Part shown: in pieces, positions 22,089 through 44,300 of the stretch | Layout: every line of letters begins with the position of its first letter | How positions within the stretch are numbered: position 1 is the stretch's first letter | Virus record (IMG/VR): IMGVR_UViG_3300032373_000001 | Source of the DNA: a virus | Lineage: Duplodnaviria > Caudoviricetes | Length of the DNA: 64,000 nucleotides | Direction: 5' to 3' (one strand) | The notes under the pieces: generated by a model | What the model saw: the letters and a program-made list of their open reading frames with translations, nothing else | The model's database searches: none | What the model was told of the DNA's origin: nothing | Position numbers and translations under genes: made by a program

Positions 22089-22478
22089 ATGAATAAGCTC
22101 GCGAAGATCCTGGACCAAGAAGGCGTGCGGAAGGTTGCCGGAATGAAGCAGCTCCAGCAGGCCATCTACCGGGATGCCATTCAGCACATCGTGCGGGACA
22201 AGGAGGCCGAGGCCGCAGCCCTGGAACTGGCCAGGACTTCCGACGCCTTCTACGTCGGCACCTTCCAGGACCTCTACGACGTGTTGCGCTCCGACGAGGG
22301 TGAGGAGGAGGTGCTGGACGCGATCCACGCGATCCTGATTGATGTGGGGGATCGCGTCAAGAACTACTTGAGCAACAAGTGGAACTTCGAACCCGGATAC
22401 CAGGTTCCCAGCATGAACCTGAGCTGGTCACCCGACGAGCGGGACAGCTACCTCCGAGAGTTCTCCCGGCTGCTCTGA
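22089..22478 (+). CDS. Leader family-A protein (MNKLAKILDQEGVRKVAG), 129 aa
   Basis: GGAGG RBS; shared N-terminal leader. Confidence 0.8.
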   Translation: MNKLAKILDQEGVRKVAGMKQLQQAIYRDAIQHIVRDKEAEAAALELARTSDAFYVGTFQDLYDVLRSDEGEEEVLDAIHAILIDVGDRVKNYLSNKWNFEPGYQVPSMNLSWSPDERDSYLREFSRLL

Positions 22479-22479
22479 G

Positions 22480-23037
22480 TCAGTACTGGATCGCATCCGA
22501 GACCTGAACTGCGTAGATGTGGGGACGTGCTGGGTCCAGCTTACTGAGCTGGACCTTACTCCGTCGGAACGGACGCCCGGACAAGAGGCGCAAAGCCCCA
22601 CTCTTCCAGTCCTTGTTGGAGCGCGGTGATCTCAGCGGTCCCGCGCTCCAACACAAGCCCATCTCAGCTGGCCGCTGGCCGGCAGGCTTTGCGCCTTCTC
22701 GGATGACCGGAGTGTCGTAGAGGATCCCATCCTGGTCCTCCTCCGTCTCCCACCGAAGAATGTCCCCCTCGGCGTAGTAGTCCTTGCTGGGAGCCAAAGC
22801 CACGAGGGCGCAAGGGTCCACACGCACAGAGATCTCGATCCAATCTGCCGAGGGGTTCTGGCGTTCGATTTCTTGGCAGTACTCATCGAGGCGGTCGAGC
22901 ATCGCATCGACCCCTTTCTGCTGGGCGGTGTCCCACTGGTCCAGACGTCGGAGTTGGACCATGATGCGGGAGGCTACCTCCACTTCCTCTCCGGGGGCCA
23001 TCTCTCCGGCACCCAGGTTCCGGATCGTGTACTTCAT
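22480..23037 (-). CDS. Hypothetical protein, 185 aa
   Basis: GAGGAGG RBS before ATG at 23037. Confidence 0.65.
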   Translation of the reverse strand: MKYTIRNLGAGEMAPGEEVEVASRIMVQLRRLDQWDTAQQKGVDAMLDRLDEYCQEIERQNPSADWIEISVRVDPCALVALAPSKDYYAEGDILRWETEEDQDGILYDTPVIREGAKPAGQRPAEMGLCWSAGPLRSPRSNKDWKSGALRLLSGRPFRRSKVQLSKLDPARPHIYAVQVSDAIQY

Positions 23038-23047
23038 CGAATCCTCC

Positions 23048-23518
23048 TCAGATACGGACAATCTCAGCACCCGGCCACCCGCTCATCCGGGACCCGCGAC
23101 GGTCCTGAACGGTCACTACCAGGTGCAAGCCTCTCACAGCAGCGCGCTTCGCCAAGTCCTCGGCTTCCTCCGAGTAGGGCAAGCAGCTATCTTCCAGGCG
23201 CTGAAGCCCGTCCACAAGGATCGCCGAACCCTTCGGGAATTCATGGATGGCCCGCCACAGGTAGCCCATCGAGCAGTCTGAGTCGTTCCGGATGACCTTC
23301 TCGTGGGTGGTGTCCTCGGGCTCTGGGCACAACTCCTCAGAGTTGTGCGTTTCCGGGGTCATCAAGACGATCTCGGGGATGTCTTCCCGAGCGCAGTAGG
23401 CTTGGAAGATGCGCCTCAAGTAGGTGCTCTTGCCTGTTCCTGCCTGACCTCGGATCATCCAGGTCTGGCCAGCCTTGGCCGACCCGACCTCTTCCAGCTT
23501 CTCTTCGATTGGTGACAT
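23048..23518 (-). CDS. Small P-loop NTPase-like protein, 156 aa
   Basis: Walker A GQAGTGKS; Walker B-like ILVDG; GGAGG RBS. Confidence 0.6.
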   Translation of the reverse strand: MSPIEEKLEEVGSAKAGQTWMIRGQAGTGKSTYLRRIFQAYCAREDIPEIVLMTPETHNSEELCPEPEDTTHEKVIRNDSDCSMGYLWRAIHEFPKGSAILVDGLQRLEDSCLPYSEEAEDLAKRAAVRGLHLVVTVQDRRGSRMSGWPGAEIVRI

Positions 23519-23548
23519 GTAGTCCTCCCTGGGGGTTTACCGGGTCCG

Positions 23549-23908
23549 TTAATCGACCCGGATGCTCCAGCGCCACCCAGGATAGTCCTCCAAGAGGCGG
23601 AACCCCTCCTCCACGTAGGGAGCATCATCCCAGTCCACGCTCGCGGGGCCAACGTAGCCGTACTTCTTCTCGAAGGCTTCTTCCGACAGCTTCTGGTCCT
23701 GGGCGACGCAGTGTTCAAAGTAGGACACTCGTATCCACCACTCCTCTGCCCAGGAACGGTCAGTGACGGGGTGGGTCGCTCGGATGCGGCGGAGACTGCT
23801 GAGGAGGTCGTATCCGAAGTAGCTCATCGTGCCCAGGTGACCCACTCGGTACGCATCCTCTTCGCCGGTCTCTGGGTTCACGAAGTCAATGTAGACGTCA
23901 CTACTCAT
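23549..23908 (-). CDS. Hypothetical protein, 119 aa
   Basis: Coupled to the upstream ORF. Confidence 0.6.
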   Translation of the reverse strand: MSSDVYIDFVNPETGEEDAYRVGHLGTMSYFGYDLLSSLRRIRATHPVTDRSWAEEWWIRVSYFEHCVAQDQKLSEEAFEKKYGYVGPASVDWDDAPYVEEGFRLLEDYPGWRWSIRVD

Positions 23909-24083
23909 TGCCATCCCCCCGAAGGTGTCGGGAAGCGATCTCGCGCTCCTCTTCCGTCATGTCATACCAGGGCTGGTCCATGCGGTCGAGGATCTCATTC
24001 TCTTCGGGGGAGTCCTCGCCGTGCTCCCGGCGGATACGCAGTAGCTCTCCGACGAGGTGCAGGTAGGTCTGGAGGGCGCTCAC
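23901..24083 (-). CDS. Hypothetical protein, 60 aa
   Basis: GTGA overlap; acidic helical sequence. Confidence 0.6.
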   Translation of the reverse strand: MSALQTYLHLVGELLRIRREHGEDSPEENEILDRMDQPWYDMTEEEREIASRHLRGDGNE

Positions 24084-24436: not shown

Positions 24437-24512
24437 GAGGTTGCCTCCTTGGGGGGCTTACCGGAGGCCGATGAAAGGCTTATACGGAACCCACAACAAC
24501 AGGGAGTGAACC

Positions 24513-25550
24513 ATGCGAAGTGTGCTGGCAAGAATCCTCGTCGAAGAGAACATCCGAGTAGCTGCCATCAATGACGCACAGGGGTGGCAACTGGTGCGGG
24601 AAATGTACGACGGAGCCACCACCCAGGGGAAACGGAACAAGGGCGAGAGCGCCTTCATGAACAACTGGGGCACTGACAACGGGTGGGACTGGATCGGCTT
24701 CAAGGAGTTCGCCCGCGACTTCTCCAACTGGGTCTCAATGAAGGCCATCCAGCTCCAGGGAGCTATGGACACCTGGCAAAACCAGAACGGAGAGACCATC
24801 ACCCCATCCGACGACGAGAGGGTGGACTGGAGCCACAACGCAGTCCTCATGGGTCGGCAGTTCTTCGACTCGGTCATGCGAAACCCTGGCATGCTCCCCC
24901 GCCGGGGAGGGCCGCTGCACCACTACAAGATCATCAACAAGGGTCAGGACCCGGCCTTCCTTGCAATCGCCCGGAAGTCCATGGGACGCCCCTTCACCAA
25001 TCTCCCGGGCAGTCCCCCCAACAAGCGGTGGGTGGAAGATGTCGCCATGGGACGCGGATGGGCGGACATGACCGATGACCTTCGCGCCAAGTACCTCACC
25101 GAAAACCGCATCGGACCTCCGCGCAACATCCCTGCCCGCGTCAGCCGCTCCAAGTTCTGGGAGTTCTACTGGTATCCCAGCTGGTCTCCGAATAGCCACG
25201 GCAAGGGCAACTACCAGCGATTCACACCTTCCGGCGCTGACGTCGGGCTGACCCTCGCAGTGAGCTGGGTCCCGACCAGCACCTCCCGGAAGAAGTCAGT
25301 GCTGGAAGAAGCCCTGCGGGACGCGGAGCAAACCTTCCGGGCATTCCGGATGCGTCTGGACACGGTGGTGGACCCCCGCTACAAGTTCACCCTCGAAGAT
25401 GTCGTCGCCGGCAAGCTCCGCCGGAAAAACTACAAGGGGGACTTGCAGCTGCCCCACACCACCAAGGTGGTCAGCATCCCCCTGATCGGAGATGCTGCGG
25501 TCGACAAGGCTACGATGCAGTCGATGGCCTCATCGCCCATCGCTCCCTGA
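24513..25550 (+). CDS. Leader family-A variant protein (MRSVLARILVEENIRVAA), 345 aa
   Basis: GGGAG RBS; CGATG-N6-TTAT motif at 24469-24483. Confidence 0.8.
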   Translation: MRSVLARILVEENIRVAAINDAQGWQLVREMYDGATTQGKRNKGESAFMNNWGTDNGWDWIGFKEFARDFSNWVSMKAIQLQGAMDTWQNQNGETITPSDDERVDWSHNAVLMGRQFFDSVMRNPGMLPRRGGPLHHYKIINKGQDPAFLAIARKSMGRPFTNLPGSPPNKRWVEDVAMGRGWADMTDDLRAKYLTENRIGPPRNIPARVSRSKFWEFYWYPSWSPNSHGKGNYQRFTPSGADVGLTLAVSWVPTSTSRKKSVLEEALRDAEQTFRAFRMRLDTVVDPRYKFTLEDVVAGKLRRKNYKGDLQLPHTTKVVSIPLIGDAAVDKATMQSMASSPIAP

Positions 25551-25604: not shown

Positions 25605-25982
25605 ATGGGTGAGCCACTTACAATTCAGGTAATCCCACGTATGGCGAATACCTGTAACCACGACCGAACCCTACAACTCACAGGCAAGGCGGTCGACTCC
25701 AAGTGGTGTAAATGGCCCAACGAAGCCGAATCCGGTCATGATCGGGGACTTCCCATGCCTGACATTCCAGGACTGGTCAACGGGGACTACATCGACCTTG
25801 AGGTCTGCATCGACTGCGGGAAGGTCTTGGGACTGCCCGATGCGGAAGACATCCTACAGAAACAACCTGTCAAGACCCCCCGCGCAACATCCAGGAGGAA
25901 GACCCTCCGAGAGATGCAAGAAAGCCTTCCGGAGTGTCAGGTCTGCGGGGATGTTCCCGGAGCGGGCTGCCCTGCCTGCTAA
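25605..25982 (+). CDS. Cys-rich hypothetical protein (CNH...CIDC; CQVC...CPAC), 125 aa
   Basis: Several CxxC pairs; start codon uncertain. Confidence 0.6.
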   Translation: MGEPLTIQVIPRMANTCNHDRTLQLTGKAVDSKWCKWPNEAESGHDRGLPMPDIPGLVNGDYIDLEVCIDCGKVLGLPDAEDILQKQPVKTPRATSRRKTLREMQESLPECQVCGDVPGAGCPAC

Positions 25983-26479
25983 GGGGTGATGCCCAAGAAG
26001 GTCTTCAGCGCGGTTCGGTAGTGGTCCAGGGCTTCCCGCTGGACCACTACCGAGGGGGTGTTGTTGAGCATGATGATGGCGGGGTTCACCTCCAACATCT
26101 TCCGGAAGACCCCATGCTTAAACAACATCTTCCGGAAGACCTCATCCTTAAACTGGAAGGGGTAACCCAACGCTTCCAAGTTGAACTGCCGCACTCGGTC
26201 GTATCCGAAGACCACAACCAGCTGCGAGTAAGTCCACAGAGGAATGTCGTAGCAGTTGTCCGGGGGACGCGACCCGCAGTAGGTATCTTCGAACAAGTAG
26301 GCGAAGCCGAACAGGCCTCGACGGAAGCCCAAGACTGTAGCCTCGGGCATCACTGGCGGAGGGGCCTCCAGGCCCAACGACTTCCTCAGCTCCTGCGCCT
26401 GCACCAGAAGGTCAGGGCCAGCGGAGATCTGCAGGGCCTCTTCGTACAGGTTGAGGAGGGCCTCTGGATAACCACTCAT
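25979..26479 (-). CDS. Hypothetical protein, 166 aa (paralog of 26476-27039)
   Basis: ATGA overlap; shared N- and C-terminal motifs. Confidence 0.7.
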   Translation of the reverse strand: MSGYPEALLNLYEEALQISAGPDLLVQAQELRKSLGLEAPPPVMPEATVLGFRRGLFGFAYLFEDTYCGSRPPDNCYDIPLWTYSQLVVVFGYDRVRQFNLEALGYPFQFKDEVFRKMLFKHGVFRKMLEVNPAIIMLNNTPSVVVQREALDHYRTALKTFLGITP

Positions 26480-27039
26480 AGGTCGAGGGCCTCTGCCAGT
26501 GCGTCCTTGTATCGGGCTATCCGCCCCCTCCCCTCATCTAAGGGAGAGTGCCGCAAGACCTGCCAAGTCAGAGGCGAGTACGGGGCCTGGAGACGGAGGC
26601 CGAGCTGCTTCAGCAAAGACCAGACGGCAGCCTCTCCGATGACAGGAGCCAAAGTCCCTGCAGTCCAAGCCGGGGCGGTGAGGTAGCTGCAGCCCTCTTG
26701 CGGGTAAGCGCTGTCCCCAGGCTCGGTGAACGTGCGGCACGCTGGCATGTACGGGGGATTTTGGGCGGGGGTCACACCCCTCGAATCAGGGTCGAATACC
26801 TCAAAAATTCGGGGCGACGGGTTGAACTCGACGCAGAGGTTGTTGAGGACGATGGGGTGCGGGGCCAATCCCATCGACTTTCGAAGCTCTTCTGCCTGAC
26901 GGAACAGAGCCTCCTGACCGACCATGTGGCGCCGGAAACACTCCACGTAGAGAAGGTGGAGCGACTCCGGAAAGGAGGCCAGCACAGCCTGCTCAACTTT
27001 CGGGAGGTTGCAATAGGTGGGAGGAGTTGTAAGCATCAA
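26476..27039 (-). CDS. Hypothetical protein, 187 aa (paralog of 25979-26479)
   Basis: QAEELRKSMGL versus QAQELRKSLGL. Confidence 0.7.
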   Translation of the reverse strand: MMLTTPPTYCNLPKVEQAVLASFPESLHLLYVECFRRHMVGQEALFRQAEELRKSMGLAPHPIVLNNLCVEFNPSPRIFEVFDPDSRGVTPAQNPPYMPACRTFTEPGDSAYPQEGCSYLTAPAWTAGTLAPVIGEAAVWSLLKQLGLRLQAPYSPLTWQVLRHSPLDEGRGRIARYKDALAEALDL

Positions 27040-27057: not shown

Positions 27058-27753
27058 TCAGTACGCCCACCCATCGTAGTCAGTCCAGGGCTTCTTCTTC
27101 CCCTGCCCCATCCCTCGGGTGACCATCTTCCCGCCGAGCTTGCCCAGGGCCTCGAAGACCTTCTTGAGCGTCGTCCCGTGCTTCCGGGCACCAGCCTCCG
27201 TGACCATGGCCCGGAAACCGCCCAGCTGAGAGTCGATGTCCTCCAGATACGCGGAGGTGAACACCCCACCCTTCTTGCGGGGCTGCCACTGGAGCACGCG
27301 AACCTCACCAGGGGTGAAGAAGTCACGGTTGCCCCGCGCAGCATCACCCAAGGTCAGGAGTTCCTTCTTGTAGGGGCTGGAAGACCACTCACGCTTGCGG
27401 GCCTTGTCGACCTCGGCCCCCAAGAGCGCCGTCGCATCCCGGAGGAACTTCCCGTAGGGTCCCTGGCGGACCTTGGAGGCAGGATAGGCGAGGCCCTCGA
27501 TGTAGGACTCCGCCAAGGTCAGGGGCTGGTGTCGGAGGACCGCTTGAGCGAGATCACGAGCAGAGCCCGTGGAAAGAGCACTCAAGATATCCTGGGGGAT
27601 GGGGCTGCCCATCCCATCGACGGGATCCTCGGGGTCCCAGTCGTCCTCTTCGTAATCATCCCCCCACTCGTCTTCCTCTTCCTCCCAAGTGTAATCCTGA
27701 CTGGAAGTCTTGCGGAGTCCCTCTTCTCGAAGGATTTGAGCGAGCTTGTTCAT
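27058..27753 (-). CDS. Leader family-A protein (MNKLAQILREEGLRKTSS) with acidic tract, 231 aa
   Basis: AGGAG RBS; T-N7-CTAT motif at 27782-27796. Confidence 0.85.
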   Translation of the reverse strand: MNKLAQILREEGLRKTSSQDYTWEEEEDEWGDDYEEDDWDPEDPVDGMGSPIPQDILSALSTGSARDLAQAVLRHQPLTLAESYIEGLAYPASKVRQGPYGKFLRDATALLGAEVDKARKREWSSSPYKKELLTLGDAARGNRDFFTPGEVRVLQWQPRKKGGVFTSAYLEDIDSQLGGFRAMVTEAGARKHGTTLKKVFEALGKLGGKMVTRGMGQGKKKPWTDYDGWAY

Positions 27754-28267: not shown

Positions 28268-29065
28268 ATGACTGAAGAAGAGAAGTACTGGGAAAAGACG
28301 TTGGGGCACATGTGCATGTCCCTCGGCCAAGCGTGGGAGTTGGAGCGCAAAATCTTCCTTGAAGAGGACGCCGCAGGGCTTGACCTGGAGACCCTACTAC
28401 TCAACACCAAACAATCCGTCCTTACGGCCCTCAGAAAAGCGACGGATAGAAAGTCTGGAGGCAAGGGCTACCCCACGGAATACAACCTGTGGAGAAAGGT
28501 AACTTCTGCCCAAGTCCTCGGAATAGGGGGAGATCACCTGGAGGAACACTTCGGGGAAGAAGACCCCTACGGAAAATGGGAGCAGGGTCTCGCGGATCTC
28601 AGAACCCTCGGAGACAAAGTGGTAGCCCACTCAAACCCAGAGGGCCTTCTCCAGAAAAACGAGGACGGGGAAAACATAGAAGAAAAACAGACAGGGCGGG
28701 CGATCTCAAGCGAGGCATCCTTCGGGAAGACCAGCATGCACACCATGGTCGGGGTTTGCAAGGGAGCCCTAAACGCCGCCGAAGAAACCTTCCCGAATTT
28801 GAAAGGTCGGCTCCACCGCCACTGCCTCCCGAAGTTCAAAAGCGAAGAGGAAGTCGGCCCGATTGCGGAAGCCCTCAAGAAAAGGTTCAAGAAAAACCTC
28901 CGGGTCTTCTTCCTTCGTGGGGAGACGTTCAAATACAAATTCCTCGGGGAGGAAGAAGCTCCGCAAGAGTGGCGGGAACTTTTCGGGAAAAGGGACGGAA
29001 GAGGGTTCATCTTCTATGACGACCCTGGGGTCCGAAAGCTACTCGCCGAACAGGTCGAAGACTGA
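28268..29065 (+). CDS. Hypothetical protein with degenerate HEPN-like motif, 265 aa
   Basis: GGAG RBS; LRKATD and LRTLGDKVVAH segments. Confidence 0.6.
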   Translation: MTEEEKYWEKTLGHMCMSLGQAWELERKIFLEEDAAGLDLETLLLNTKQSVLTALRKATDRKSGGKGYPTEYNLWRKVTSAQVLGIGGDHLEEHFGEEDPYGKWEQGLADLRTLGDKVVAHSNPEGLLQKNEDGENIEEKQTGRAISSEASFGKTSMHTMVGVCKGALNAAEETFPNLKGRLHRHCLPKFKSEEEVGPIAEALKKRFKKNLRVFFLRGETFKYKFLGEEEAPQEWRELFGKRDGRGFIFYDDPGVRKLLAEQVED

Positions 29066-30379
29066 CGGTCCCTCCTCTTGAGAGTCCTCCTGGACTACTC
29101 CGAGGAAGTCCAGGAGCCTCTTGAGGCAGCCGTCGGGGTCCTGTAGGAGTTCCGACTCCCAGAGGAACAGGGAAGCGACCCGGACCCCAGCATACTCAGC
29201 CTCCCGTGCCAGGACGTACTGGTCGGGGGGCATTCCTGTAGCCTCCTCCCGGTGCCAGTAGTTGCCCAGGACCTCGACCACCTTCGAGGAGCGGACCTCG
29301 TTGGGCGGCATCCCCTGTTCGATGAGGGCTCGCTGCTCGACGGAGTAGGCCACGAAGTCAGGGTTGCGGCGCTTCCAGGTGCCGTCAGGCTCCCTCACGG
29401 TGAGCCAATAGGCATGATCACCCGTGTAGGTGAGAAGAAGGCCAGCGAGCCGTTCGAGGATCTTCTCCGGGCCGGTCTTGGGGGGCGGCGGGAGGATCCC
29501 AGCCTCCCATAGATTCTCCGCGCCGTAGCGAGCGAGCCATGCCTCCTTGCGCAGCCTCAAGGACTTCTTACGGATCGTAGGAGCTCCGGGATACACCTTC
29601 TGGTACTGGGCTGAAGCGATGCCGTGCTGAGACGTGAGGTGCCAGCTCAAGCTCTTGAGCCTCTTTCCGCAGATCCGGCAGACGACGAAGTCTTTGCCCT
29701 GGGAGGCACCCTCCCCGTAGAGCTCCGGATCCCGCCGCATGTACTCGGACCACGCCTTCCAGTCCTTGTCCTCGTAGGGGCCAGGGCAGGCGTTCTTGTG
29801 TAGCCCGATCCGAGTCCCCGAGAGCTTCTGGCCGCAGGAAGGGCAGGGGACCTGGTGCGCCTCTTCCCACCTCTCTCGGTTGAGCTTCTGCCAAGGCTCG
29901 CAGACAATGAGATGTGCTCGGCGGGCGTTGTTCGTCAAGAAGCCTCGGTTGCAGCCTTTGCACTTGTAGGGGAGGCTCTTGTTGTAGACCCACCAGTGGG
30001 CGCAGTTGATCCTGTGGGAAGGCCCGTGCCCTACATGACCGCAGGCGCAGCCGTCCTTGGGGGCCTCTGCGTCCAGGTCTACTTCGGGGAGAGTCTCTGG
30101 CCCAGGGCACTCTGAGAAGTGTTCACGCTGGGAGGTGACTCTGGCTCCGCAGATCCCACAGGGCTTCACCTTCCCCTCCAAGAAGCCTGGGCACACCCGC
30201 TCATGGTTGGCCCTGGACCGAGGGGCGCTGAACCCCATCCCGCACCCCTTCCGGCACTTGTGCGGGAGGTTCTTCGACCACTCAATGTACTGAGGGCATT
30301 CACGTCTATGGGGGTTGAGGTATGCGGGGTGGAAGTTGTTCCCGCACCCTTCACAGGTTGCCTTCTTCGCTCGGGCCAT
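29039..30379 (-). CDS. Free-standing putative homing endonuclease: array of CCHC/C2H2 zinc fingers plus Vsr-like (EDxHD-type) nuclease, 446 aa
   Basis: Six C-x(1-3)-C-x(8-12)-H-x3-C units, one MucR-like CRIC...HLTSQH, and C-terminal NPDF...VEVLGNYWH...LWESEL. Confidence 0.75.
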   Translation of the reverse strand: MARAKKATCEGCGNNFHPAYLNPHRRECPQYIEWSKNLPHKCRKGCGMGFSAPRSRANHERVCPGFLEGKVKPCGICGARVTSQREHFSECPGPETLPEVDLDAEAPKDGCACGHVGHGPSHRINCAHWWVYNKSLPYKCKGCNRGFLTNNARRAHLIVCEPWQKLNRERWEEAHQVPCPSCGQKLSGTRIGLHKNACPGPYEDKDWKAWSEYMRRDPELYGEGASQGKDFVVCRICGKRLKSLSWHLTSQHGIASAQYQKVYPGAPTIRKKSLRLRKEAWLARYGAENLWEAGILPPPPKTGPEKILERLAGLLLTYTGDHAYWLTVREPDGTWKRRNPDFVAYSVEQRALIEQGMPPNEVRSSKVVEVLGNYWHREEATGMPPDQYVLAREAEYAGVRVASLFLWESELLQDPDGCLKRLLDFLGVVQEDSQEEGPSVFDLFGE

Positions 30380-31483: not shown

Positions 31484-31864
31484 TTAACGCCAGCCGAGCT
31501 CCGTCGCGGCTTCGTCCTCATCCATGCCCTTGTAGGTCCAGCCATTCCGGTTGGACCAGGAGAGGTCATAGTTGTCGCCGCCGCGCTTCAGGTCCTTCTC
31601 GAGGATCTCGTAGATAGCGCCGGGGACGTCCTCACCCGCCACCATGTCCCCGAGCTCGTCCCGGAGATCCAGGAGGTCGACCGAATCCAGGGTACGGTCA
31701 TTCACTGCGATCGTCACCATGTTCCGATCCACCCGGAGGGTGACGTTCTTGTAGCTGGCCTTCTTGAGTCCCGCCAGGATGGCGCGTCGGTTCTCGTCTC
31801 CCTTCGGGAGAGAAGAGGCGAGACGGATGAGGGCAATACGGTCTTGCTTGCTGATCTTGTTCAT
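31484..31864 (-). CDS. Leader family-B protein (MNKISKQDRIALIRLASSLPKGDENRRAILAGLKKAS), 126 aa
   Basis: AGGAG RBS; leader shared with the gene starting at 62893. Confidence 0.85.
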   Translation of the reverse strand: MNKISKQDRIALIRLASSLPKGDENRRAILAGLKKASYKNVTLRVDRNMVTIAVNDRTLDSVDLLDLRDELGDMVAGEDVPGAIYEILEKDLKRGGDNYDLSWSNRNGWTYKGMDEDEAATELGWR

Positions 31865-31891: not shown

Positions 31892-32098
31892 CTATAAGGC
31901 TAAAAAAAACCTGCCGTAGCGCTTGGTGCCGATGAGGAACCCGTTCTTGGCCCGCTGGGTGGACCTGTGGTTGCCCTCATAGCTCTGGACGAAGTTGTAG
32001 AGCCCCTCGATGGTGCTCCGGTCAAAGGCGACCTCGGTTGAGGGACCTGGAGAATGCTGGCAAGGCGGGTTGGCATTGGGGTCCCCCTTTCGGCTCAA
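31892..32098 (-). CDS. Hypothetical protein, 68 aa
   Basis: TTGA overlap with the upstream gene. Confidence 0.4.
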   Translation of the reverse strand: MSRKGDPNANPPCQHSPGPSTEVAFDRSTIEGLYNFVQSYEGNHRSTQRAKNGFLIGTKRYGRFFLAL

Positions 32099-32487
32099 CC
32101 CACCAACTGGGCCAAATTGGAGAGCATGTCCACATCTTCGACGATGAAGCTCAAGTCGATCGACCCAGGCCGGACCTCCTTAGCTCCCACCCTCTCCCCT
32201 TCGAGGGAAGTGATGCGGAACTCGGGCTCCACTCCGAGCCGCTCCCCGTACTCCCTCAAGACAGCGTTCTGCAGCCCCTGGAGGATGACGTTCTTGTACC
32301 GCTTCAGGACCCACTCACTGAGGCCCTCGTGATGCAGGTCCGGAACCGGATCACGGACCTGCAAGAATCCGCGGACCCAGAACAAGGTCCCCCTACGGAA
32401 AGGCGCGATCTCAGTGAGGGAGAAACGTGCTCCGGCAGTCCTCACCCCTTCTTGCCCCAAGATACCAGCCAGCCTCACATTGCCCAT
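32095..32487 (-). CDS. Leader family-A protein (MGNVRLAGILGQEGVRTAG), 130 aa
   Basis: GGAGG RBS before ATG at 32487. Confidence 0.75.
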   Translation of the reverse strand: MGNVRLAGILGQEGVRTAGARFSLTEIAPFRRGTLFWVRGFLQVRDPVPDLHHEGLSEWVLKRYKNVILQGLQNAVLREYGERLGVEPEFRITSLEGERVGAKEVRPGSIDLSFIVEDVDMLSNLAQLVG

Positions 32488-32785: not shown

Positions 32786-33175
32786 TCAGGATCCGGAGTA
32801 GTAGGTGTTGACTACACCCCGGTAGATCTCATAGGGCTTGTCGCCTGGGTCGTAAGCCTCCGGGTCATTCCGGAACGGGTCCAGGTACTGGAACACGGCC
32901 ACAACTTCCGCCATGCCTCCCGGCCAGTAGTTCTTCTTGAAATTCGACACCAGTGCGTGAGCTTTCCGCAGCGCCTCTTGCTTCGAGGAGGCTTCGCCCG
33001 TGAGCCGAACGGCTCCGCTCGGGAACGGGACACTGATCCGCATCCGACGAAGGTCGTCGGAGGTGTAGATCTTGGGGTGTTGGCCCCAACTTGGAGGAGT
33101 CTCCTCCAAGGACCGCATCGGGACAGAGGCTTCCCGCAGTCCCTCTTGCTTCAGGATCTTCGCCAATTTGTTCAT
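32786..33175 (-). CDS. Leader family-A protein (MNKLAKILKQEGLREAS), 129 aa
   Basis: GGAG RBS; shared leader. Confidence 0.85.
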   Translation of the reverse strand: MNKLAKILKQEGLREASVPMRSLEETPPSWGQHPKIYTSDDLRRMRISVPFPSGAVRLTGEASSKQEALRKAHALVSNFKKNYWPGGMAEVVAVFQYLDPFRNDPEAYDPGDKPYEIYRGVVNTYYSGS

Positions 33176-35201: not shown

Positions 35202-37865
35202 CTACCCCTGCTGGTGCATCGCCACCACGCGCAGAGCACTCAGGCGAGAAGCTGGGGGAGCCGTCCTCGTCTCGTGGACCCGGACTGGGGCGGAGGTCAA
35301 TTTGCGGTACTGGTCCACAAAGGCTTCCCCCCCACGTTTCCGATAAGCGCGGCCCTTTAGGACGTCCACTCCCAAGAGGGCACCCTTGATCTTGACTGGA
35401 CCAGGAACGAACTCTTCCGCATTAGTGTACTGGGGATGCTCAGAGCGCGTTGCCATCCCAAACTCAAAAGGCATCATCTTGTGGTGCTCGCGCAATTTGT
35501 TGGCGTCCAGCACCAAACGGACGGGACCATACCTGCGCAAGTCAAACCGGCGAGTCAGGCTCACTCCAGGAACGAGCCCCCGCTCTTTGAGGGCTTCTTG
35601 GAAGTTCTCGGTCGGAGAGATCACCCCGCTCTTGAGGATTCCCGCAGCCCCCTCCAGGGAAGTGAAGTGGTAGAGAGGGGCGCGGTTGGAAGCCTTCTTG
35701 CCCGGCTTATACGGAACCACGTTGTACGGACCCTTCACACGTCGGGTGAATTCCCTCAGGAACTCGTCCTCCCAGGCCAACCCGGCGCTCCAGGGGAAGC
35801 TGATCTCCGGGATCTCTGGCCGAGAGTCGATTACCCCCACCACCACGATCCGGTTCTTGCCGCTGAACCCGACAGGCTCCAGGGAACGGACATTGTGAAT
35901 GGCTCCATCACCGACGTCGGCCGTAGGCTTGAAGAACCGGCTGAATTGCTCGGTCGCGTCACGCAATTTTTGGAAGGTGCCCGTGAACATCGCAGGAGGG
36001 CCCAGCAAATCCCCCAGGGCCTCCTGCGCCTCTGGGGTCGGGGTCTCTCTCAGCATACCCACCGTGCGGGTGTAGTTCCGCCGCAAGCCCCCCTCAATCA
36101 AGTGGGCCAAGTAGGTCAGCAGCAGGTCTCGAGTGACCTGCAGAGCCTTCTGCTTCTGGCGGTCATAGCTCCGTCGAGCATTTGGCCAGCGCCCCAGGAA
36201 CTTGCGGAGGAACTTGTCCAGGAGAGGATCAAAGCTCATCCCCGACATATAGGCGGCAAGCTCCTTCAGCGTGTAGGGGTTGATAGGGTTGCGGGTGTCT
36301 TCTTGAAAGAAGCGGTCAGGGATAAAGGCTCCCCAGCGCTTTGGGATGCGACGGAAATTGCTCCCGGCCACCTCTTCCGCCACCTCAAGGATCGAGTCTT
36401 CATCTTGGATGATGTCCGGCGAGCGGGTCTCCAGGGTGGCCCCAACGATCACGGGCAAGCCTCCGCTGCGAGCAGCAGTCCGTGCAGCATCGTAGGCAAA
36501 GCGTTCCGAGAAGTAGGCCCCGCCGTAGGTCTGGAGGGAGCGCGAGCCGAGCCACTCTTCCTCCCCGTAGACCAAATCCACCCCCGACGGGAGCAGCCCT
36601 TGCTTCAGGATCCCCCGGATGTTCTTGGAGGAGGTTCCATGCCAGAAGAGCTTCCGAGCAGCCTCACGGTCGGAGGAGCCCTGCTTCTCCCTGCGGGACT
36701 GAGCCTGGAGAAGGCGACCCAGCACTGCAACCACATGCTTGCATGCCCCATGTCGGTGGTTCGGGTCCTTCTCGCGAGGGGAGGCTGCGGTCCCTCTGGG
36801 CTTCCCGTAGAGATAGCCGCCGCGCTTGGCCCAGTGCTCGGGACCCTGCCAACGCCAGAACTCGCAGGAGCAAGAGACCTTGATGGAATCTTCTCCCCGA
36901 AGGACCCGAATGCGGTGAGTACCCCCGTCAGAGGCTGCCGCCCTGTACTCCAAGACGCCCAGGCGAACTCCGATGCGAGTCAGCTTCACTTTGCGGGCAC
37001 GCTGGAAGAGGTCACGCGAGCACTTCTGGAGGATGTCTCGGAGGGTGGCCCGTTTGTTATCCGAAGCGGCCTTCGGATAAGTCAACTGCTGCCGTAGAGT
37101 GTTCTTCATGCTGTCGGGGATGACCTTGGCAGAACTGGCAGGCATGTTATTTTTATGGGTCGTGCTGTTCCCCGGCCCCCCAAGGCCGGTCGGCTCGTAG
37201 TGAGTGCCTGGGGTCGTGAAGTGGGAGGAGCCGGAAGGCTGGTAGTGCACTCCCTCTCCTGGCTGCTGCCGGCCAGGGTTCGGGTTCTCCTGCTTGTAGA
37301 GGATGATGTCCCCGGCTCGACGGTCTTCCCACAGCGCCAGCACCACTTCTGCAGCGCACCGCTCGATGGGAGTCTTCTTAGGGGTGAGGCCCTTCTTGCG
37401 CCAGTAGGCCGTGATCACCTTGGCCACGGGCCCAGCGATCTTGAACACCAAGAAGAGGTGCCGCCGGGGGTCAGCCCAGCGAATCAGCGTCCCTTTCTGA
37501 ATGGCCCGCTGGTGCTTCTTGCGCAGCTCGAAGTACAAGGGGCTCTCGTAGCGGGCCCAGAACTCTCGGAACGAGTCGCGAAGGTTTCCCAGAGTGATGC
37601 CGCGCAAGTCCATCCGAAATTGAGCGTGAGCGCTCAACCCGATGAGCTTCATCTCCGGGCCGATGCCCGCGAAGGTCCGATCCGAACGGTAGACGAGGTT
37701 GACTTCGTTCGGGGTGAGGTCCCCGGTAGCGTCCAAGCGGGCCAGCAGCGGTGCGGCATTCTTGGCGCTGAGATGCTTGTTGATGCGTTCTGCTACAGTA
37801 CAAGTCCCTCCAGGAACCCCCAGCGGAGGACGGAGGTCTTTGGCGTAAGACTCTCGGAGCATCAT
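35202..37865 (-). CDS. Multidomain (polyvalent) protein, 887 aa: DUF4258/RelE-like domain, SWIM zinc finger and two ADP-ribosyltransferase-like domains
   Basis: HAQFRMDLRGI...VITAYW; CSC...CKH; WHGTS...GAYFS; YHFTS...VSLTR...AEE. Confidence 0.75.
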   Translation of the reverse strand: MMLRESYAKDLRPPLGVPGGTCTVAERINKHLSAKNAAPLLARLDATGDLTPNEVNLVYRSDRTFAGIGPEMKLIGLSAHAQFRMDLRGITLGNLRDSFREFWARYESPLYFELRKKHQRAIQKGTLIRWADPRRHLFLVFKIAGPVAKVITAYWRKKGLTPKKTPIERCAAEVVLALWEDRRAGDIILYKQENPNPGRQQPGEGVHYQPSGSSHFTTPGTHYEPTGLGGPGNSTTHKNNMPASSAKVIPDSMKNTLRQQLTYPKAASDNKRATLRDILQKCSRDLFQRARKVKLTRIGVRLGVLEYRAAASDGGTHRIRVLRGEDSIKVSCSCEFWRWQGPEHWAKRGGYLYGKPRGTAASPREKDPNHRHGACKHVVAVLGRLLQAQSRREKQGSSDREAARKLFWHGTSSKNIRGILKQGLLPSGVDLVYGEEEWLGSRSLQTYGGAYFSERFAYDAARTAARSGGLPVIVGATLETRSPDIIQDEDSILEVAEEVAGSNFRRIPKRWGAFIPDRFFQEDTRNPINPYTLKELAAYMSGMSFDPLLDKFLRKFLGRWPNARRSYDRQKQKALQVTRDLLLTYLAHLIEGGLRRNYTRTVGMLRETPTPEAQEALGDLLGPPAMFTGTFQKLRDATEQFSRFFKPTADVGDGAIHNVRSLEPVGFSGKNRIVVVGVIDSRPEIPEISFPWSAGLAWEDEFLREFTRRVKGPYNVVPYKPGKKASNRAPLYHFTSLEGAAGILKSGVISPTENFQEALKERGLVPGVSLTRRFDLRRYGPVRLVLDANKLREHHKMMPFEFGMATRSEHPQYTNAEEFVPGPVKIKGALLGVDVLKGRAYRKRGGEAFVDQYRKLTSAPVRVHETRTAPPASRLSALRVVAMHQQG

Positions 37866-41149: not shown

Positions 41150-41167
41150 CCGTAGGCTACTGGGCAT

Positions 41168-41195: not shown

Positions 41196-41234
41196 CAATT
41201 GCGGGTGCACGTAAGCACCCCGCAAGAGGGAAAC

Positions 41235-41657: not shown

Positions 41658-41771
41658 ACTGTAGCGCCTACACCGTGGGGAACGAGGCAGACTACCCTGC
41701 GGAGGAACGCGGGCATTCTACAAAAGGGGGCTTGCTCTGAGGGTAAGGTAGACTGCTGCCGTGGAGGTCTT

Positions 41772-42758
41772 GTGAGCTACGATGTTGTCCTGGTCGACTG
41801 CATGAACCTGCTGCACCGAGCAGCGCATGCGTACCGTCACCTGTACGTCCAGACGCCCCAAGGGGGCATGATCGAGACGGGGCCTGCCTTCGGCTTCATC
41901 AACATGACCTTGGGCATCCACGAGAAGTTCTGCCGACCAGGCGGTCAGATGATCTTCTGCTGGGACGCAGGCTATCAGCACCGGCTGGAGATCCACCCCG
42001 GCTACAAGGCTTCTCGTCGAGAGAAGAAGGAGAAACCTCCCAAGGAGGATCGGGTCGCAATGGGTCCGCAGGTCCAAGCTGTTCGTAAGCTGATCGGACT
42101 GGCGGGATGGGCTCAGGCCAAGGCTTCAGGGTACGAGGCGGACGACGTGATGGCAGCACTCGCCGCACGACACCGCGACTCAAAGTCCGTTGCCATCTAC
42201 ACCGGGGATCAGGACCTCCACCAGAGCGTCCGCAACAACGTCCACGTCATCTCAGGCAAGTCCGGCAAGGAGACGGTGTGGACCCTGCGCGAGGTTCAAG
42301 AGAAGTGGGGGAACCCCCCGGAGCGGATCGCGGAGATGAAAGGGATCATCGGCGACCCCGGAGACGACATCCCTGGGTGCCCGAAGGTCGGGATGGTCAT
42401 GGCGAAGAAGCTGTTCGCCCAGTACGGCGGGGTCCGTAAGATTATCCAAGCCGCTCAGCAGGAAGGTGCGCTTCTCCAGGGGGAGTACAACGGGAAGTCC
42501 TGGAAGGCCAAGGCAGTGACTGCTAAGGTGGCGGCTCACGCCGAAGACATCCTCATGAGCTGGGAGCTGGCGAGGGTCATTGAGGACTGCGAAGTGCTGA
42601 TCCGTCAAGAAGACCCCAACCAGCCGGGACTGCGCAAATCCTTCAACTTCTTGGAGTTCAGCTCCCTGCTGATGCCTGACCGTTGGAACCAGATCCTTCA
42701 GGTGGCAGGCAAGGAGCCCCCCGCCCAGACAGGCCTGTTCGACCTGTTCCTGGCGTGA
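41772..42758 (+). CDS. 5'-3' exonuclease / flap endonuclease (PolA N-terminal, T4 RNase H-like), 328 aa
   Basis: VDCMNLLHRA, YKASR, EADD, TGDQD, GDPGDDIPG (helix-3-turn-helix) motifs. Confidence 0.95.
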   Translation: MSYDVVLVDCMNLLHRAAHAYRHLYVQTPQGGMIETGPAFGFINMTLGIHEKFCRPGGQMIFCWDAGYQHRLEIHPGYKASRREKKEKPPKEDRVAMGPQVQAVRKLIGLAGWAQAKASGYEADDVMAALAARHRDSKSVAIYTGDQDLHQSVRNNVHVISGKSGKETVWTLREVQEKWGNPPERIAEMKGIIGDPGDDIPGCPKVGMVMAKKLFAQYGGVRKIIQAAQQEGALLQGEYNGKSWKAKAVTAKVAAHAEDILMSWELARVIEDCEVLIRQEDPNQPGLRKSFNFLEFSSLLMPDRWNQILQVAGKEPPAQTGLFDLFLA

Positions 42759-43589
42759 TCAGCTGTCCAGCGTACTGATCTGAGTCACCGAATAGCTCAA
42801 CCGAAAGGCCGCTGTATTATCGGAGTTGGCAGTGCTCGTCTCCCCGAAGGTCATCAGCGCCAAGTAGACCGGGGAACCTTCCGGGAAGGGGGTGCCTTCG
42901 ATTCCGGAAGTGTCTGTCACGCCTTCGGACCGGACCTGAATTCGAGTCCCGTCAGGCTGGACGTTCTCAACCCCCGCGCACTTGACGGTCCGTTGCCGGG
43001 TGAAGTTGAAGTCGACATCACAATAGAAGGAAGCCGCCGAAGGGTCGTAGGAAGACCCTGATGTAGCTCCGACGCTCCTCGCAAAGGACCCATTGTTGAT
43101 CCGCTTGACAGAACAGCAAGGAAGGTTCCCCCCTGTGAGCTGAAACCCAAACCCGTAAGCAGTATCTCCGGAGACGACGGCCGAGTCGAAGATTCTGTGG
43201 GTAAGCATCGCCACCAACCCTTGGCGAGGATTGCCGTCATCCCCGAGGGAAGTGTAGCGGTCCACAAAGAGGCTGAGACGCACCTTGAAGTTGTCCCCCC
43301 AAGTGACCCCAGGAATCACCCAGTAATGGGTCCGGGCCACGGTCGGGTCCCGGCTGAACACCGCATCGTAGCTCACAGTGGAAAGCCCGGTCGATCCCGC
43401 AGTCTCCGAGTCGAGGTTGAACGCGGACGTCCCGGAGGTCGCAACGGAATCCCCGACCAACACGCGGGTCCACGAAGGGGCGGCAGCGGCTTCCCCCTCG
43501 GCCTCTTTCTCGTTGCCGTAGTCGACCGGGTTGAACCCGCCAGCGGGGTTGTTGCCTCGAAACTTGAGGTTGTAGAAGGGAACGCCCAT
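42759..43589 (-). CDS. Putative virion protein, 276 aa
   Basis: GGAG RBS before ATG at 43589; CGGTT-N6-CTAT motif at 43636-43650; beta-rich composition. Confidence 0.55.
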   Translation of the reverse strand: MGVPFYNLKFRGNNPAGGFNPVDYGNEKEAEGEAAAAPSWTRVLVGDSVATSGTSAFNLDSETAGSTGLSTVSYDAVFSRDPTVARTHYWVIPGVTWGDNFKVRLSLFVDRYTSLGDDGNPRQGLVAMLTHRIFDSAVVSGDTAYGFGFQLTGGNLPCCSVKRINNGSFARSVGATSGSSYDPSAASFYCDVDFNFTRQRTVKCAGVENVQPDGTRIQVRSEGVTDTSGIEGTPFPEGSPVYLALMTFGETSTANSDNTAAFRLSYSVTQISTLDS

Positions 43590-43652
43590 GCCGTACTCCG
43601 GGAGAGTGGGGGTTGCTCTTGGTCCCCTACTCCCCATAGCCGGGCAACCGGC

Positions 43653-43811
43653 TCAGTCCCTATTGACGGACTCGCGCACAGTCTTGCAGGGAGTCTTCCC
43701 TGCAACTTCTCGGAGGGTCGTCTTGATGGCGTGGCGTTGGTCCGCCTGACGAGCAACGGCATCTTCTCCGGTGGCGTTGATCTTGATGGCGTGGTTGCGC
43801 TTCTCGTGCAT
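43653..43811 (-). CDS. Small protein, 52 aa, with a duplicated HAIK motif
   Basis: GAGGA RBS; fills the gap between genes; below the ORF-track cutoff. Confidence 0.55.
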   Translation of the reverse strand: MHEKRNHAIKINATGEDAVARQADQRHAIKTTLREVAGKTPCKTVRESVNRD

Positions 43812-43820
43812 GGTATCCTC

Positions 43821-44300
43821 TCAGAGGCGGTTGTCGACAGAGTACCCGTTGAGGGCGGCTTCGTACCCATCCGCCTGTTCCGCCAGCAGGCTAACCCCAA
43901 CTTGGCGTTCTGTCGGGGGATTCGTCTCCCCCGACAGCTTGCGGAGCGCACCTACGAACTCCGGATAGTCGAATCTCCGCAAGAACTCTTCGGGGCTCAA
44001 CGGCTTCGCAGGCTCGTATGCCCCGGAGTATCCCTGGTGCTCCGAAGCGCACAAGAGGAGGGTGCCCAGCTGCCGCAGCGAAAGGCGGCTCGCAGCAAAG
44101 TCCAGCTCCGCTCCCATAGCCCCAAAAGAGTCCATGGAAAGGCTGAGGCGAGGACCCATCCCCGCATCGTACACCCGGAAGCTCACTCCCCCGTTACCGA
44201 CGTGGAAGTACCCCTCCTGAACCGTGCGACCCTGACCCGTGTTGCGTGCGACCTTGGCTACGCCCTCTTGCTCCAGGCTGTAGGCGAGCTTCTTTCTCAC
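43821..44300 (-). CDS. Leader family-A variant protein (MRKKLAYSLEQEGVAKVAR), 159 aa
   Basis: GTGA-coupled start; leader similarity. Confidence 0.7.
   Translation of the reverse strand: MRKKLAYSLEQEGVAKVARNTGQGRTVQEGYFHVGNGGVSFRVYDAGMGPRLSLSMDSFGAMGAELDFAASRLSLRQLGTLLLCASEHQGYSGAYEPAKPLSPEEFLRRFDYPEFVGALRKLSGETNPPTERQVGVSLLAEQADGYEAALNGYSVDNRL

What the first reader, a model, noticed from the sequence alone, without database searches (positions are those of the whole stretch)
22089..44300. Leader family A (MNKLAKILxQEGxRxAS): candidate capsid-targeting sequence on six unrelated cargo proteins
The six leaders are 22089 MNKLAKILDQEGVRKVAG, 24513 MRSVLARILVEENIRVAA, 27753 MNKLAQILREEGLRKTSS, 32487 MGNVRLAGILGQEGVRTAG, 33175 MNKLAKILKQEGLREAS and 44300 MRKKLAYSLEQEGVAKVAR. 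Similarity stops after about 17 residues, and the genes are scattered on both strands. Three have the T-N7-CTAT/TTAT motif and one has the CTCT variant. It is established that T4 internal proteins use a 10-aa capsid-targeting sequence ending in Glu that the prohead protease removes. These leaders place a Glu at positions 11-13 and end in [RK]xA[SAG]. The inference is an expandable set of packaged, injected effector proteins, with new genes recruited by acquiring the leader. The family-B gene at 31864 shares the AGGAGAACCC...ATGAACAAG start with 27753, linking the two families.
Basis: partly seen in the sequence, partly recalled or inferred. Interest (0 to 1): 0.85.

Follow-up and report, generated by a model that had tools for sequence, protein, structure and literature searches.

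The report
Swappable address tags on huge-phage proteins
Six unrelated proteins of an uncultured 411-kb phage start with the same 17-residue tag, which ends in the likely cut site of the phage's head protease, so it is probably a clip-off label that loads varied proteins into the capsid, as in phage T4 but with a different tag and protease; packaging itself is not shown.

Summary
Exactly six ORFs in the window begin with the family-A leader (M-N-K-L-A-x-I-L-x-Q/E-E-G-h-R-x-A/T-S/A/G). A profile scores them at 28-38 bits; the next six-frame hit scores 7. All six follow a Shine-Dalgarno site, their cargos are unrelated, and conserved residues use varied synonymous codons.

The window is part of a 410,989-bp huge-phage contig. 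A close relative keeps the promoter and leader at one locus but carries a different cargo, and DNA homology stops exactly at the leader's end. Another cargo has a homologue that carries the family-B leader instead. Family B is a 38-residue helical hairpin with no Pfam or PHROG entry. It heads, or sits inside, proteins of about 1,700 sequence clusters, with 6-26 copies per related genome.

Leader tails match a basic-x-Ala/Thr-small motif. That motif is conserved at aligned positions in the phage's protease and scaffold, in a layout like the herpesvirus assemblin R and M sites.

Best reading (about 0.5): a T4-style capsid-targeting propeptide system built on a different protease specificity. Packaging, cleavage and injection are inferred, not shown. 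The scan has already found Glu-terminated T4-type leader arsenals on other DNA; this is a distinct variant.

The parts
22089..22478 (+). Family-A leader gene 1 (129 aa); leader is nt 22089-22142, tail R-K-V-A-G
   Evidence: (37.0 bits)
24513..25550 (+). Family-A leader gene 2 (345 aa); leader is nt 24513-24566, tail R-V-A-A. Residues 19-147 give a weak DUF4240-like lead only. The gene is absent from the close relative L049
   Evidence: (30.7 bits)
27058..27753 (-). Family-A leader gene 3 (231 aa, P0001); leader is nt 27700-27753, tail R-K-T-S-S, followed by a very acidic tract. Its C-terminal 108 aa have a homologue (P0002) that carries a family-B leader. The same locus in L049 holds a different cargo behind the same leader
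32095..32487 (-). Family-A leader gene 4 (130 aa); leader is nt 32428-32487, tail R-T-A-G. The ortholog in L049 keeps the leader
32786..33175 (-). Family-A leader gene 5 (129 aa); leader is nt 33125-33175, tail R-E-A-S. The ortholog P0208 in L049 keeps the leader
   Evidence: (38.1 bits)
43821..44300 (-). Family-A leader gene 6 (159 aa, GTG start); leader is nt 44244-44300, tail K-V-A-R; the most divergent copy
   Evidence: (28.6 bits)
31484..31864 (-). Family-B leader gene (126 aa, P0004); the 38-aa helical-hairpin module is nt 31751-31864, tail K-K-A-S. The gene is absent from L049 (an indel)
   Evidence: (83.8 bits)
62411..62893 (-). Family-B leader gene (160 aa), two genes from the major capsid protein gene; module is nt 62780-62893
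   Evidence: 64.6 bits
20829..20891 (-). Partial internal B-like module (first helix and turn) inside the 219-aa ORF 20508-21167
   Evidence: 26.6 bits
63642..64000 (-). 3' part of the major capsid protein gene (290 aa; continues to 64514 beyond the window). This is the start of the head module (MCP, p223, scaffold 393 aa, protease 484 aa) that carries the conserved basic-x-Ala-Ser sites
   Evidence: (phrog_2522, 8.6e-51)

Best explanation
Family A is a single amphipathic helix of about 13 residues plus a tail. The related-in-function family B is a 38-residue helix-turn-helix hairpin. Both are modular propeptides that work as address labels.

Shown: they are fused by recombination at the leader boundary to many unrelated ORFs. 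They are conserved at the protein level. In the window they end in basic-x-(Ala/Thr/Ser)-small.

Also shown: that motif is the one conserved at aligned positions in this phage lineage's own head-maturation protease (N-terminal arm, end of the catalytic domain, and before the C-terminal domain) and in its scaffold (about 22 and 37 residues from the C-terminus).

Inferred: the helix or hairpin binds a component of the assembling prohead core, so the cargo is enclosed. The assemblin/HK97-like serine protease then cuts at basic-x-Ala|Ser and frees the cargo, which leaves the capsid with the DNA and acts early in the next host. This is what T4 does with IPI-III and Alt.
For: 1. There are six leaders and no other hits, all at true N-termini. 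The cargos are unrelated and synonymous codons vary.
2. Cargo is swapped behind a conserved promoter, RBS and leader in the syntenic relative L049, and DNA identity stops at the last leader codon. Gene presence and absence differ at leader loci.
3. The homologue of the P0001 cargo carries a B leader.
4. The B profile finds 1,686 cluster representatives at E <= 1e-3. In my sample, 120 of 131 single-copy proteins have the module at residue 1, and 113 cargos fall into 87 BLAST clusters. Relatives sharing an 87-90% identical MCP carry 6-26 copies each.
5. [RK]-x-A-[SAG] follows 38% of N-terminal modules against 3.9% of background windows. The motif also precedes internal and C-terminal modules at about 6 and 4 times the chance expectation respectively.
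6. The motif is conserved at three protease positions in seven sequences down to 37% identity (the third, before the C-terminal domain, was read in the full-length sequences), and at scaffold C-terminal positions in four genomes.
7. The protease hits phrog_18299, head maturation protease. It has invariant His130 and Ser181, and an intein sits next to the His motif in one homologue.
8. One B-leader cargo is an ADP-ribosyltransferase exoenzyme domain (7e-22), the same class of enzyme as T4 Alt.
9. T4 precedent: the CTS is sufficient for packaging, and Alt and gp21 are processed at both termini (PMC9026906).
10. The B module is a confident helical hairpin (pLDDT 87).
Against: There is no direct evidence that any of these proteins is in a virion or is cleaved.

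Leader genes are scattered far from the head module. In relative L001 they lie among replication genes, so late expression is not established.

The strict tail motif is present in only 38-43% of B leaders. It is missing from 4 of 6 A-type leaders in contig G010.

The motif is loose, with a background of 0.005 per residue, and R-L-A-S inside the B module also fits it.

The two giant proteins of the head module carry no A or B leader.

The B module also occurs internally and at extreme C-termini, sometimes without an adjacent site. That also fits a docking-domain role.

The protease fold could not be confirmed (model pLDDT 45).
Confidence: 0.5

Rival explanations
1. The tag is a docking tag for a cytoplasmic assembly. 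The module is a small homo- or hetero-typic interaction domain. Proteins with two to four modules act as hubs, and single-module proteins are clients recruited to a non-capsid structure such as a replication or takeover factory or a condensate.
For: 72 of the 126 newly returned top representatives carry 2-4 modules, often at both termini. A 779-aa protein has N-terminal, internal and C-terminal copies. Leader genes sit among replication genes in L001.
Against: This does not explain why the modules are flanked, on the cargo side, by the motif that is conserved in the protease and scaffold. Internal copies look like fused leader-cargo units, for example K-T-A|M-K-T-L-T-A-S. T4 Alt also has propeptides at both ends.
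Confidence: 0.2
2. The tag is a protease-recognition tag without packaging. It is a pro-sequence or exosite that keeps cargo inactive, or marks it for timed processing or degradation by the phage protease (or a host protease) in the cytoplasm.
For: The junction motif is enriched, and the sites are conserved in the protease itself.
Against: Prohead proteases of this class are normally active only inside the prohead (established knowledge of HK97, T4 and herpes assemblin). A 38-residue folded hairpin conserved across about 1,700 clusters is more than a cleavage site needs. The complex prediction gave no answer either way.
Confidence: 0.1
3. The conserved unit is a nucleic-acid-level cassette. 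What is conserved is a promoter, RBS and translation-initiation region spread by recombination, and the peptide is a passenger.
For: Upstream DNA is co-conserved with the leader. A C[CT]TAT[AC] element lies upstream of several leader genes.
Against: Within the window the six leaders differ at most synonymous sites while the residues stay fixed. The B peptide is conserved across contigs of 52-69% GC. It also occurs internally and at C-termini, where no initiation signal is needed.
Confidence: 0.05
4. The tag is a DNA-tethering domain. The basic helical hairpin is a SAP/HeH-like DNA binder that rides into the capsid on the genome or localises effectors to DNA.
For: The module has a net positive charge and helix-turn-helix spacing reminiscent of SAP motifs (my reading of the consensus).
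Against: None of the 53 modules hits a Pfam SAP, HeH or Rho_N model even at E <= 10. Foldseek finds only generic hairpins. Family A is a single helix yet serves the same cargo family.
Confidence: 0.05

Closest known systems
Phage T4 capsid targeting sequence (CTS) of internal proteins IPI-III and Alt, removed by prohead protease gp21 (Mullaney & Black 1996; review PMC9026906)
   Same: It is a short N-terminal peptide shared by otherwise unrelated, fast-evolving proteins. It ends at the head protease's cut site. The leader genes lie in variable loci where cargo is exchanged. An ADP-ribosyltransferase is among the cargos. Some proteins, and the protease itself, have propeptides at both termini.
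   Different: The T4 CTS is 10 residues and ends in (L/I)-x-Glu; here the tail is basic-x-Ala/Thr-small. Family B is a folded 38-residue hairpin that is also used internally and at C-termini. The protease is a different, zinc-ribbon-bearing lineage, and the MCP is a small 290-aa HK97-type protein with a separate scaffold. Nothing has been tested experimentally.
Herpesvirus assemblin (peptidase S21) with R- and M-sites, consensus (V/L/I)-x-Ala|Ser; homologous to the phage HK97/T4 prohead proteases
   Same: Candidate sites have Ala followed by Ser. One lies at the end of the catalytic domain (K-A-A-S), one before a C-terminal domain, and one about 22 residues before the scaffold C-terminus, which would release the MCP-binding tail. 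The protease and scaffold tails look alike. The order is His then Ser, about 50 residues apart.
   Different: P3 is basic rather than aliphatic. The protease and scaffold are separate genes. The fold was not confirmed here. Herpesviruses have no family of leader-tagged cargo.
Propeptides of phiKZ/SPN3US giant-phage head and ejection proteins (PMC5694885, PMC10052503)
   Same: These are giant phages that package many proteins, which a prohead protease processes at N-terminal propeptides.
   Different: Those propeptides share only the (S/A/G)-x-Glu cut motif and no common address sequence. They belong to a different protease and MCP lineage.
Encapsulin cargo-loading peptides
   Same: A short terminal peptide directs diverse cargo into an HK97-fold shell.
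   Different: They are usually C-terminal, are not cleaved, and have a different consensus. This element is a tailed phage: its head module holds the MCP, scaffold and protease genes, and the scan's unchecked notes place portal and terminase genes nearby.
N-terminal trafficking domains of bacterial polymorphic toxins, and phage polyvalent proteins (Iyer et al. 2017, recalled from memory)
   Same: A conserved delivery module is combined with recombining variable effector modules. The polyvalent ART protein lies next to the leader genes.
   Different: The delivery route would be the capsid, not a secretion system. Cargos are mostly small single-domain ORFans.

Membership tests
T4-type capsid targeting sequence / protease-removed head propeptide | The same short N-terminal peptide on otherwise unrelated proteins of one phage | tested here: met
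   Six A leaders and two B leaders in the window; cargos unrelated
T4-type capsid targeting sequence / protease-removed head propeptide | The leader ends in the cleavage motif of the phage's own prohead protease | tested here: inconclusive
   Leader tails fit basic-x-A/T/S-small, the motif conserved at aligned protease and scaffold positions. It is enriched about 10-fold after B modules. However, the true specificity is unmeasured and the strict motif is present in only 38-43% of B leaders.
T4-type capsid targeting sequence / protease-removed head propeptide | gp21-type specificity, cut after Glu in (L/I)-x-E | tested here: not met
   The conserved Q/E-E-G has Leu at P4, not P3. It does not fit T4's (L/I)-x-E or the phiKZ-type (S/A/G)-x-E motif. 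The sites found conserved in the protease and scaffold alignments are Ala-Ser type; I did not search those alignments for conserved Glu sites.
T4-type capsid targeting sequence / protease-removed head propeptide | Cargo present in virions, with the mature N-terminus downstream of the leader | not testable with these tools
   The phage is uncultured and no proteome is available.
T4-type capsid targeting sequence / protease-removed head propeptide | The leader alone is sufficient to enclose a reporter in the capsid | not testable with these tools
   This needs an experiment.
T4-type capsid targeting sequence / protease-removed head propeptide | Cargo genes are exchanged behind a conserved leader, as in the hyperplastic IP loci of T-even phages | tested here: met
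   Window compared with L049 at the 27753 locus; homology ends at the leader. A and B leaders occur on homologous cargo.
Assemblin/HK97-type prohead serine protease (clan SH) | Sequence or fold membership, with a catalytic His followed by Ser | tested here: inconclusive
   phrog_18299, head maturation protease, 2.8e-8. His130 and Ser181 are invariant, and an intein abuts the His motif. There is no PDB sequence hit, and the AF2 model is too poor to search with (pLDDT 45).
Assemblin/HK97-type prohead serine protease (clan SH) | Self-cleavage sites flanking the catalytic domain, and a site near the scaffold C-terminus | tested here: inconclusive
   Motifs are conserved at those positions in 4-7 genomes. 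Cleavage itself was not observed.
SAP/HeH DNA-binding motif | A match to the SAP, HeH or Rho_N profiles or fold | tested here: not met
   None of the 53 modules hits such a Pfam model at E <= 10. Foldseek against the PDB gives no hit at E <= 0.001.
Recognition tag of a co-encoded modifying enzyme (RiPP-like, as in earlier finding e1-127136) | One enzyme family recurrently encoded next to the tagged genes | tested here: not met
   Clustering of neighbours in 33 IMG/VR loci shows only syntenic genes and no recurrent enzyme. This was a partial test.

The most novel reading that the evidence does not exclude
A large clade of uncultured huge phages, with a conserved 290-aa MCP and a zinc-ribbon assemblin-like protease, uses an undescribed plug-and-play packaging code. 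The code is a 38-residue helical-hairpin module, or the short single-helix family A in one sublineage, plus a basic-x-Ala|Ser cut site. It is placed at N-termini, between the domains of polyproteins, and at C-termini. It would load a polymorphic arsenal of more than a thousand unrelated effector families into the capsid for injection.
Probability: 0.4. Interest if true: 0.8.

Novelty: new variant of a known kind. Interest (0 to 1): 0.62.

Why it matters
If correct, T4's address-label principle extends to a phylogenetically separate group of huge phages with a different protease specificity. A simple sequence handle would then pick out the injected, first-strike proteins of phages that cannot be cultured.

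Those proteins, about 1,700 clusters that are mostly ORFans, would be a rich source of candidate anti-defence and host-takeover functions.

The tag and its cut site could also serve as a portable packaging signal for HK97-type capsids.

The conserved basic-x-Ala-Ser sites give a testable prediction for the specificity of a new prohead protease lineage. Their layout parallels herpesvirus assemblin.

Tried and rejected
- Complex prediction of the protease (residues 1-300) with the B leader: verdict 'no answer', score 0.00. This is not evidence either way.
- AF2 model of the protease from a 7-row alignment: pLDDT 45, unusable for fold search. PDB sequence search of the protease: only chance hits.
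- Foldseek of the B-module model against the PDB: only generic helical hairpins, best E = 3.3.
- hhalign of the B module against the scaffold alignment: probability 0.8%. I dropped the idea that the module mimics a scaffold helix. A by-eye resemblance to the protease C-terminal helix also got no HMM support.
- hhalign of family A against family B: probability 1.5%. Homology of the two leaders is not demonstrable.
- Pfam and PHROGs on all leader proteins and on the module alone: nothing.
- GenBank phages: no DNA or protein match to the region, the A24513 cargo or the B leader.
- ESM Atlas on three cargos: only a weak DUF4240 lead for residues 19-147 of the 345-aa cargo.
- Search for a recurrent neighbouring enzyme, the RiPP-like alternative: none found.
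- The 14-nt promoter pattern is not significantly enriched.
- The whole own genome could not be searched because the record is not held. The genome-wide number of A leaders is therefore unknown.
- Family A was sought in IMG/VR and JGI metagenomes by a degenerate DNA pattern. Apart from one unexamined 1.3-kb fragment, only one further contig turned up, G010.

Full report
**What is in the window.** The window has 61-63% GC and is rich in ORFans. One of its proteins is recorded on a 410,989-bp contig, identified as ena:ERZ27251221:k141_3662258.

The head module starts at the window's right end. It holds a major capsid protein of 290 aa (phrog_2522, 8.6e-51), a 223-aa protein, a 393-aa acidic scaffold-like protein, and a 484-aa head maturation protease (phrog_18299, 2.8e-8). 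Beyond these lie two giant proteins of 1,472 and 1,797 aa carrying Topo IB, pyrophosphatase, GNAT and 2H domains.

No GenBank phage matches the DNA, a cargo protein or the leader. The element is therefore an uncultured huge phage.

**The observation.**
- A loose regular expression finds only these six in all six frames.
- A profile HMM separates them (28.6-38.1 bits) from everything else (7.2 bits or less).
- Each is preceded by a Shine-Dalgarno motif.
- The alignment has M1, L4, A5, L8 and E11 invariant and loses similarity after 17-20 residues.
- The cargos show no BLASTP relationship.
- The invariant residues are encoded by two to four different codons. Selection therefore acts on the peptide and not on a recently copied piece of DNA.

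**Evidence that the leader is a mobile module.**
- *Close relative L049.* This Logan contig of 94 kb is syntenic, with 70-94% amino-acid identity. It keeps the leaders on the orthologs of 33175 and 32487. At the locus of 27753 it has a different 124-aa cargo behind the same promoter-like region, RBS and leader. Nucleotide identity runs from about 60 nt upstream to the last leader codon and then collapses. The genes at 24513 and 31864 are absent from L049.
- *Leader swap.* The C-terminal 108 residues of the 27753 cargo are 51% identical to a protein on a 222-kb contig. That protein's N-terminus is not an A leader but a family-B leader.
- *Third contig.* A 115-kb contig, G010, has six more A-type leaders on other cargos. 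One is a 23-aa stump.
- *Rarity.* Family A is otherwise rare. Degenerate-pattern scans of IMG/VR and JGI metagenomes found nothing else apart from one unexamined 1.3-kb fragment.

**Family B is the bigger story.** The window has two full B leaders (31864 and 62893, the latter two genes from the MCP gene) and one partial internal copy. The consensus is M-x-K-I/L-S/T-x-x-D-R-x-A-L-I-R-L-A-S-S-L-P-x-G-x-x-x-R-R-A-I-L-A-G-L-K-K-A/T-S/A.
- A word-based search found 77 small proteins with it, all diverging right after the leader.
- A profile search of 1.84 billion representatives found 1,686 at E <= 1e-3 and 1,051 at E <= 1e-10.
- Five IMG/VR contigs carry it. Four of them share an 87-90% identical MCP and a 57-60% identical protease; the fifth, G004, shows neither gene on its fragment. 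They carry 26, 12, 6, 8 and 7 copies.
- In my sample, 120 of 131 single-copy proteins have the module at residue 1, and 113 cargos fall into 87 BLAST clusters.
- 72 of the 126 newly returned top representatives have two to four modules, often at both termini. A 779-aa protein has N-terminal, internal and C-terminal copies.
- The module has no Pfam or PHROG family. It is predicted with confidence (pLDDT 87) as helix 6-18, turn, helix 24-39. Foldseek finds only generic hairpins.
- Among 86 representatives, Pfam recognises an ADP-ribosyltransferase exoenzyme domain (7e-22), DUF2958, pentapeptide repeats and a fusellovirus VP2-like domain. Most representatives hit nothing.

**The cut-site argument.** I aligned the protease from this phage, three close relatives and three distant ones (37-38% identity, lower GC). 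A basic-x-Ala/Thr-Ser/Ala motif is conserved at three positions:
- in the N-terminal arm (R-T-A-A, K-T-A-S);
- at the end of the catalytic domain (K-A-A-S/N);
- between an acidic linker and a C-terminal domain (R-T/V-A-S|S, K-E-A-S|S), read in the full-length sequences.

The first two positions lie in segments that are otherwise poorly conserved. The scaffold keeps P-Q-P-K-K/R-A-S and V-S/T-K-E-A-S/A about 37 and 22 residues before a conserved C-terminal tail. This layout matches the R-site and M-site logic of herpesvirus assemblin, whose sites are hydrophobic-x-Ala|Ser (established knowledge).

The six A-leader tails are K-V-A-G, R-V-A-A, K-T-S-S, R-T-A-G, R-E-A-S and K-V-A-R. The B tails are K-K-A-S, R-S-A-V and K-T-S-S. 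All fit the motif.

Across the metagenomic B proteins, [RK]-x-A-[SAG] follows 38% of N-terminal modules against 3.9% of random windows. A looser basic-x-[ATSV] form follows 84% against 31%. The motif also precedes internal and C-terminal modules at about six and four times the chance expectation respectively.

Caveats:
- The motif is short.
- R-L-A-S inside the module fits it too.
- Four of the six A-type leaders in G010 lack it.
- The two giants have no leader, and I did not test their motif density against a background from this phage's own proteins.

**Protease identity.** His130 and Ser181 are invariant and about 50 residues apart. A Cys4/His zinc-ribbon-like insert follows Ser181. One homologue has an intein inserted directly before the E-H-V-Q motif. 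This fits an assemblin/HK97-type serine protease. The AF2 model was too poor to confirm the fold, and no solved structure matches by sequence.

**Mechanism, and how sure I am.** The most economical reading is a T4-like system (PMC9026906). A terminal address peptide brings the protein into the assembling prohead core. The head protease removes the peptide, and the cargo leaves with the DNA.

Three T4 facts parallel what is seen here. Alt and gp21 have propeptides at both termini. Alt is an ADP-ribosyltransferase. The IP loci are polymorphic.

| Status | Points |
|---|---|
| Shown here | family membership; N-terminal position; protein-level selection; modular exchange; match to motifs conserved in head proteins |
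| Inferred | binding to a head component; cleavage; packaging; injection |

I put this reading at 0.5. The main rival (0.2) is a docking tag for a non-capsid assembly, suggested by the multi-module proteins and by leader genes lying among replication genes in L001. A protease-only tag, a pure DNA cassette and a DNA-binding hairpin are less likely (see the rivals).

A test for a recurrent neighbouring enzyme was prompted by an earlier case in this scan, where a shared tag turned out to be an enzyme's recognition site. It found none here. The single complex prediction gave no answer.

**Side evidence on regulation.** The hexamer C[CT]TAT[AC] lies 30-37 nt upstream of the starts at 22089, 24513, 27753, 31425, 31864, 47815 and 55667 (the 1,793-aa giant). 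It also lies at 9203(-), upstream of the operon for the 1,097- and 1,769-aa (beta-helix) proteins. The sites at 22056 and 9203 share the 11-mer CCCCTATACAG. If this is a promoter element, some leader genes are co-regulated with large, probably structural, genes. This is suggestive only.

**Novelty.** The principle is known from T4. This scan has already reported several Glu-terminated T4-type leader arsenals on other DNA. Four things are new here: the protease lineage with its Ala-Ser-type motif; a folded 38-residue module with no database family but about 1,700 protein clusters; its use at N-terminal, internal and C-terminal positions; and a documented A-for-B leader swap. I class it as a new variant of a known kind.

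Noticed in passing
L056:3959-6889 (IMGVR_UViG_3300035696_001556): A homologue of the head protease carries an intein-like insertion of about 420 residues directly before the conserved E-H-V-Q motif. This marks the probable catalytic His.
   Followed up: partly
L057:10962-13610 (own contig, beyond the window end): The C-terminal tails of the protease and the scaffold resemble each other (L-L-S-K-W-E…N-N-P against L-S-Q-L-W-Q-S-A-P-D-V). This would be expected if both dock to the capsid protein, as in herpesviruses.
   Followed up: no
window 9203(-), 22056(+), 24479(+), 27786(-), 31462(-), 31898(-), 47835(-), 55701(-): The hexamer C[CT]TAT[AC] lies about 30-37 nt upstream of gene starts, including leader genes and the 1,793-aa giant. 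At 9203(-) it lies about 180 nt upstream of the 1,097/1,769-aa operon. The sites at 22056 and 9203 share the 11-mer CCCCTATACAG. It is a candidate phage promoter element.
   Followed up: partly
window 35202-37865 (-): An 887-aa polyvalent protein with a PARP-type ADP-ribosyltransferase hit (3.4e-7). Its ortholog in L049 is 1,158 aa, so the C-terminal end differs between close relatives.
   Followed up: no
window 55713-58625 (-) and 58637-59377 (-): The 970-aa protein and the adjacent 246-aa protein (Phage_phiTE_241_C) share their first 69 residues at 48% identity. This is probably a common N-terminal anchor of two structural proteins.
   Followed up: no
window 25979-26479 (-) and 26476-27039 (-): Adjacent small paralogues (37% identity over 51 residues) in the same variable region as the leader genes.
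   Followed up: no
L001:10709-11800: In the 222-kb relative, the gene after the B-leader homologue of P0001 hits the AcrVA2-like Pfam family. The leader gene there lies among replication genes (DnaB, primase, PolA).
   Followed up: no
L060 (G010:C1:73965-74033, -): An A-type leader followed by a stop after 23 codons (M-N-R-L-A-R-I-L-G-E-E-G-L-S-A-K-K-A-A). This is a leader stump left by cargo loss or poised for cargo gain.
   Followed up: no
window 59924-62314 (+): A MoxR-type AAA ATPase (369 aa) and a DUF2201 metallopeptidase/VWA protein (423 aa) form a pair on the opposite strand, inserted between the head genes and the downstream structural genes.
   Followed up: no
window 29039-30379 (-): A 446-aa protein with a Ros/MucR-type zinc finger (4.5e-6), among the leader genes.
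   Followed up: no
L052, L054, L055, L056 (contigs G006-G009): Phages whose protease is 34-44% identical keep the K-T-A-S and K-E-A-S sites but lack the B module on the available fragments. They may use leader families of their own.
   Followed up: partly
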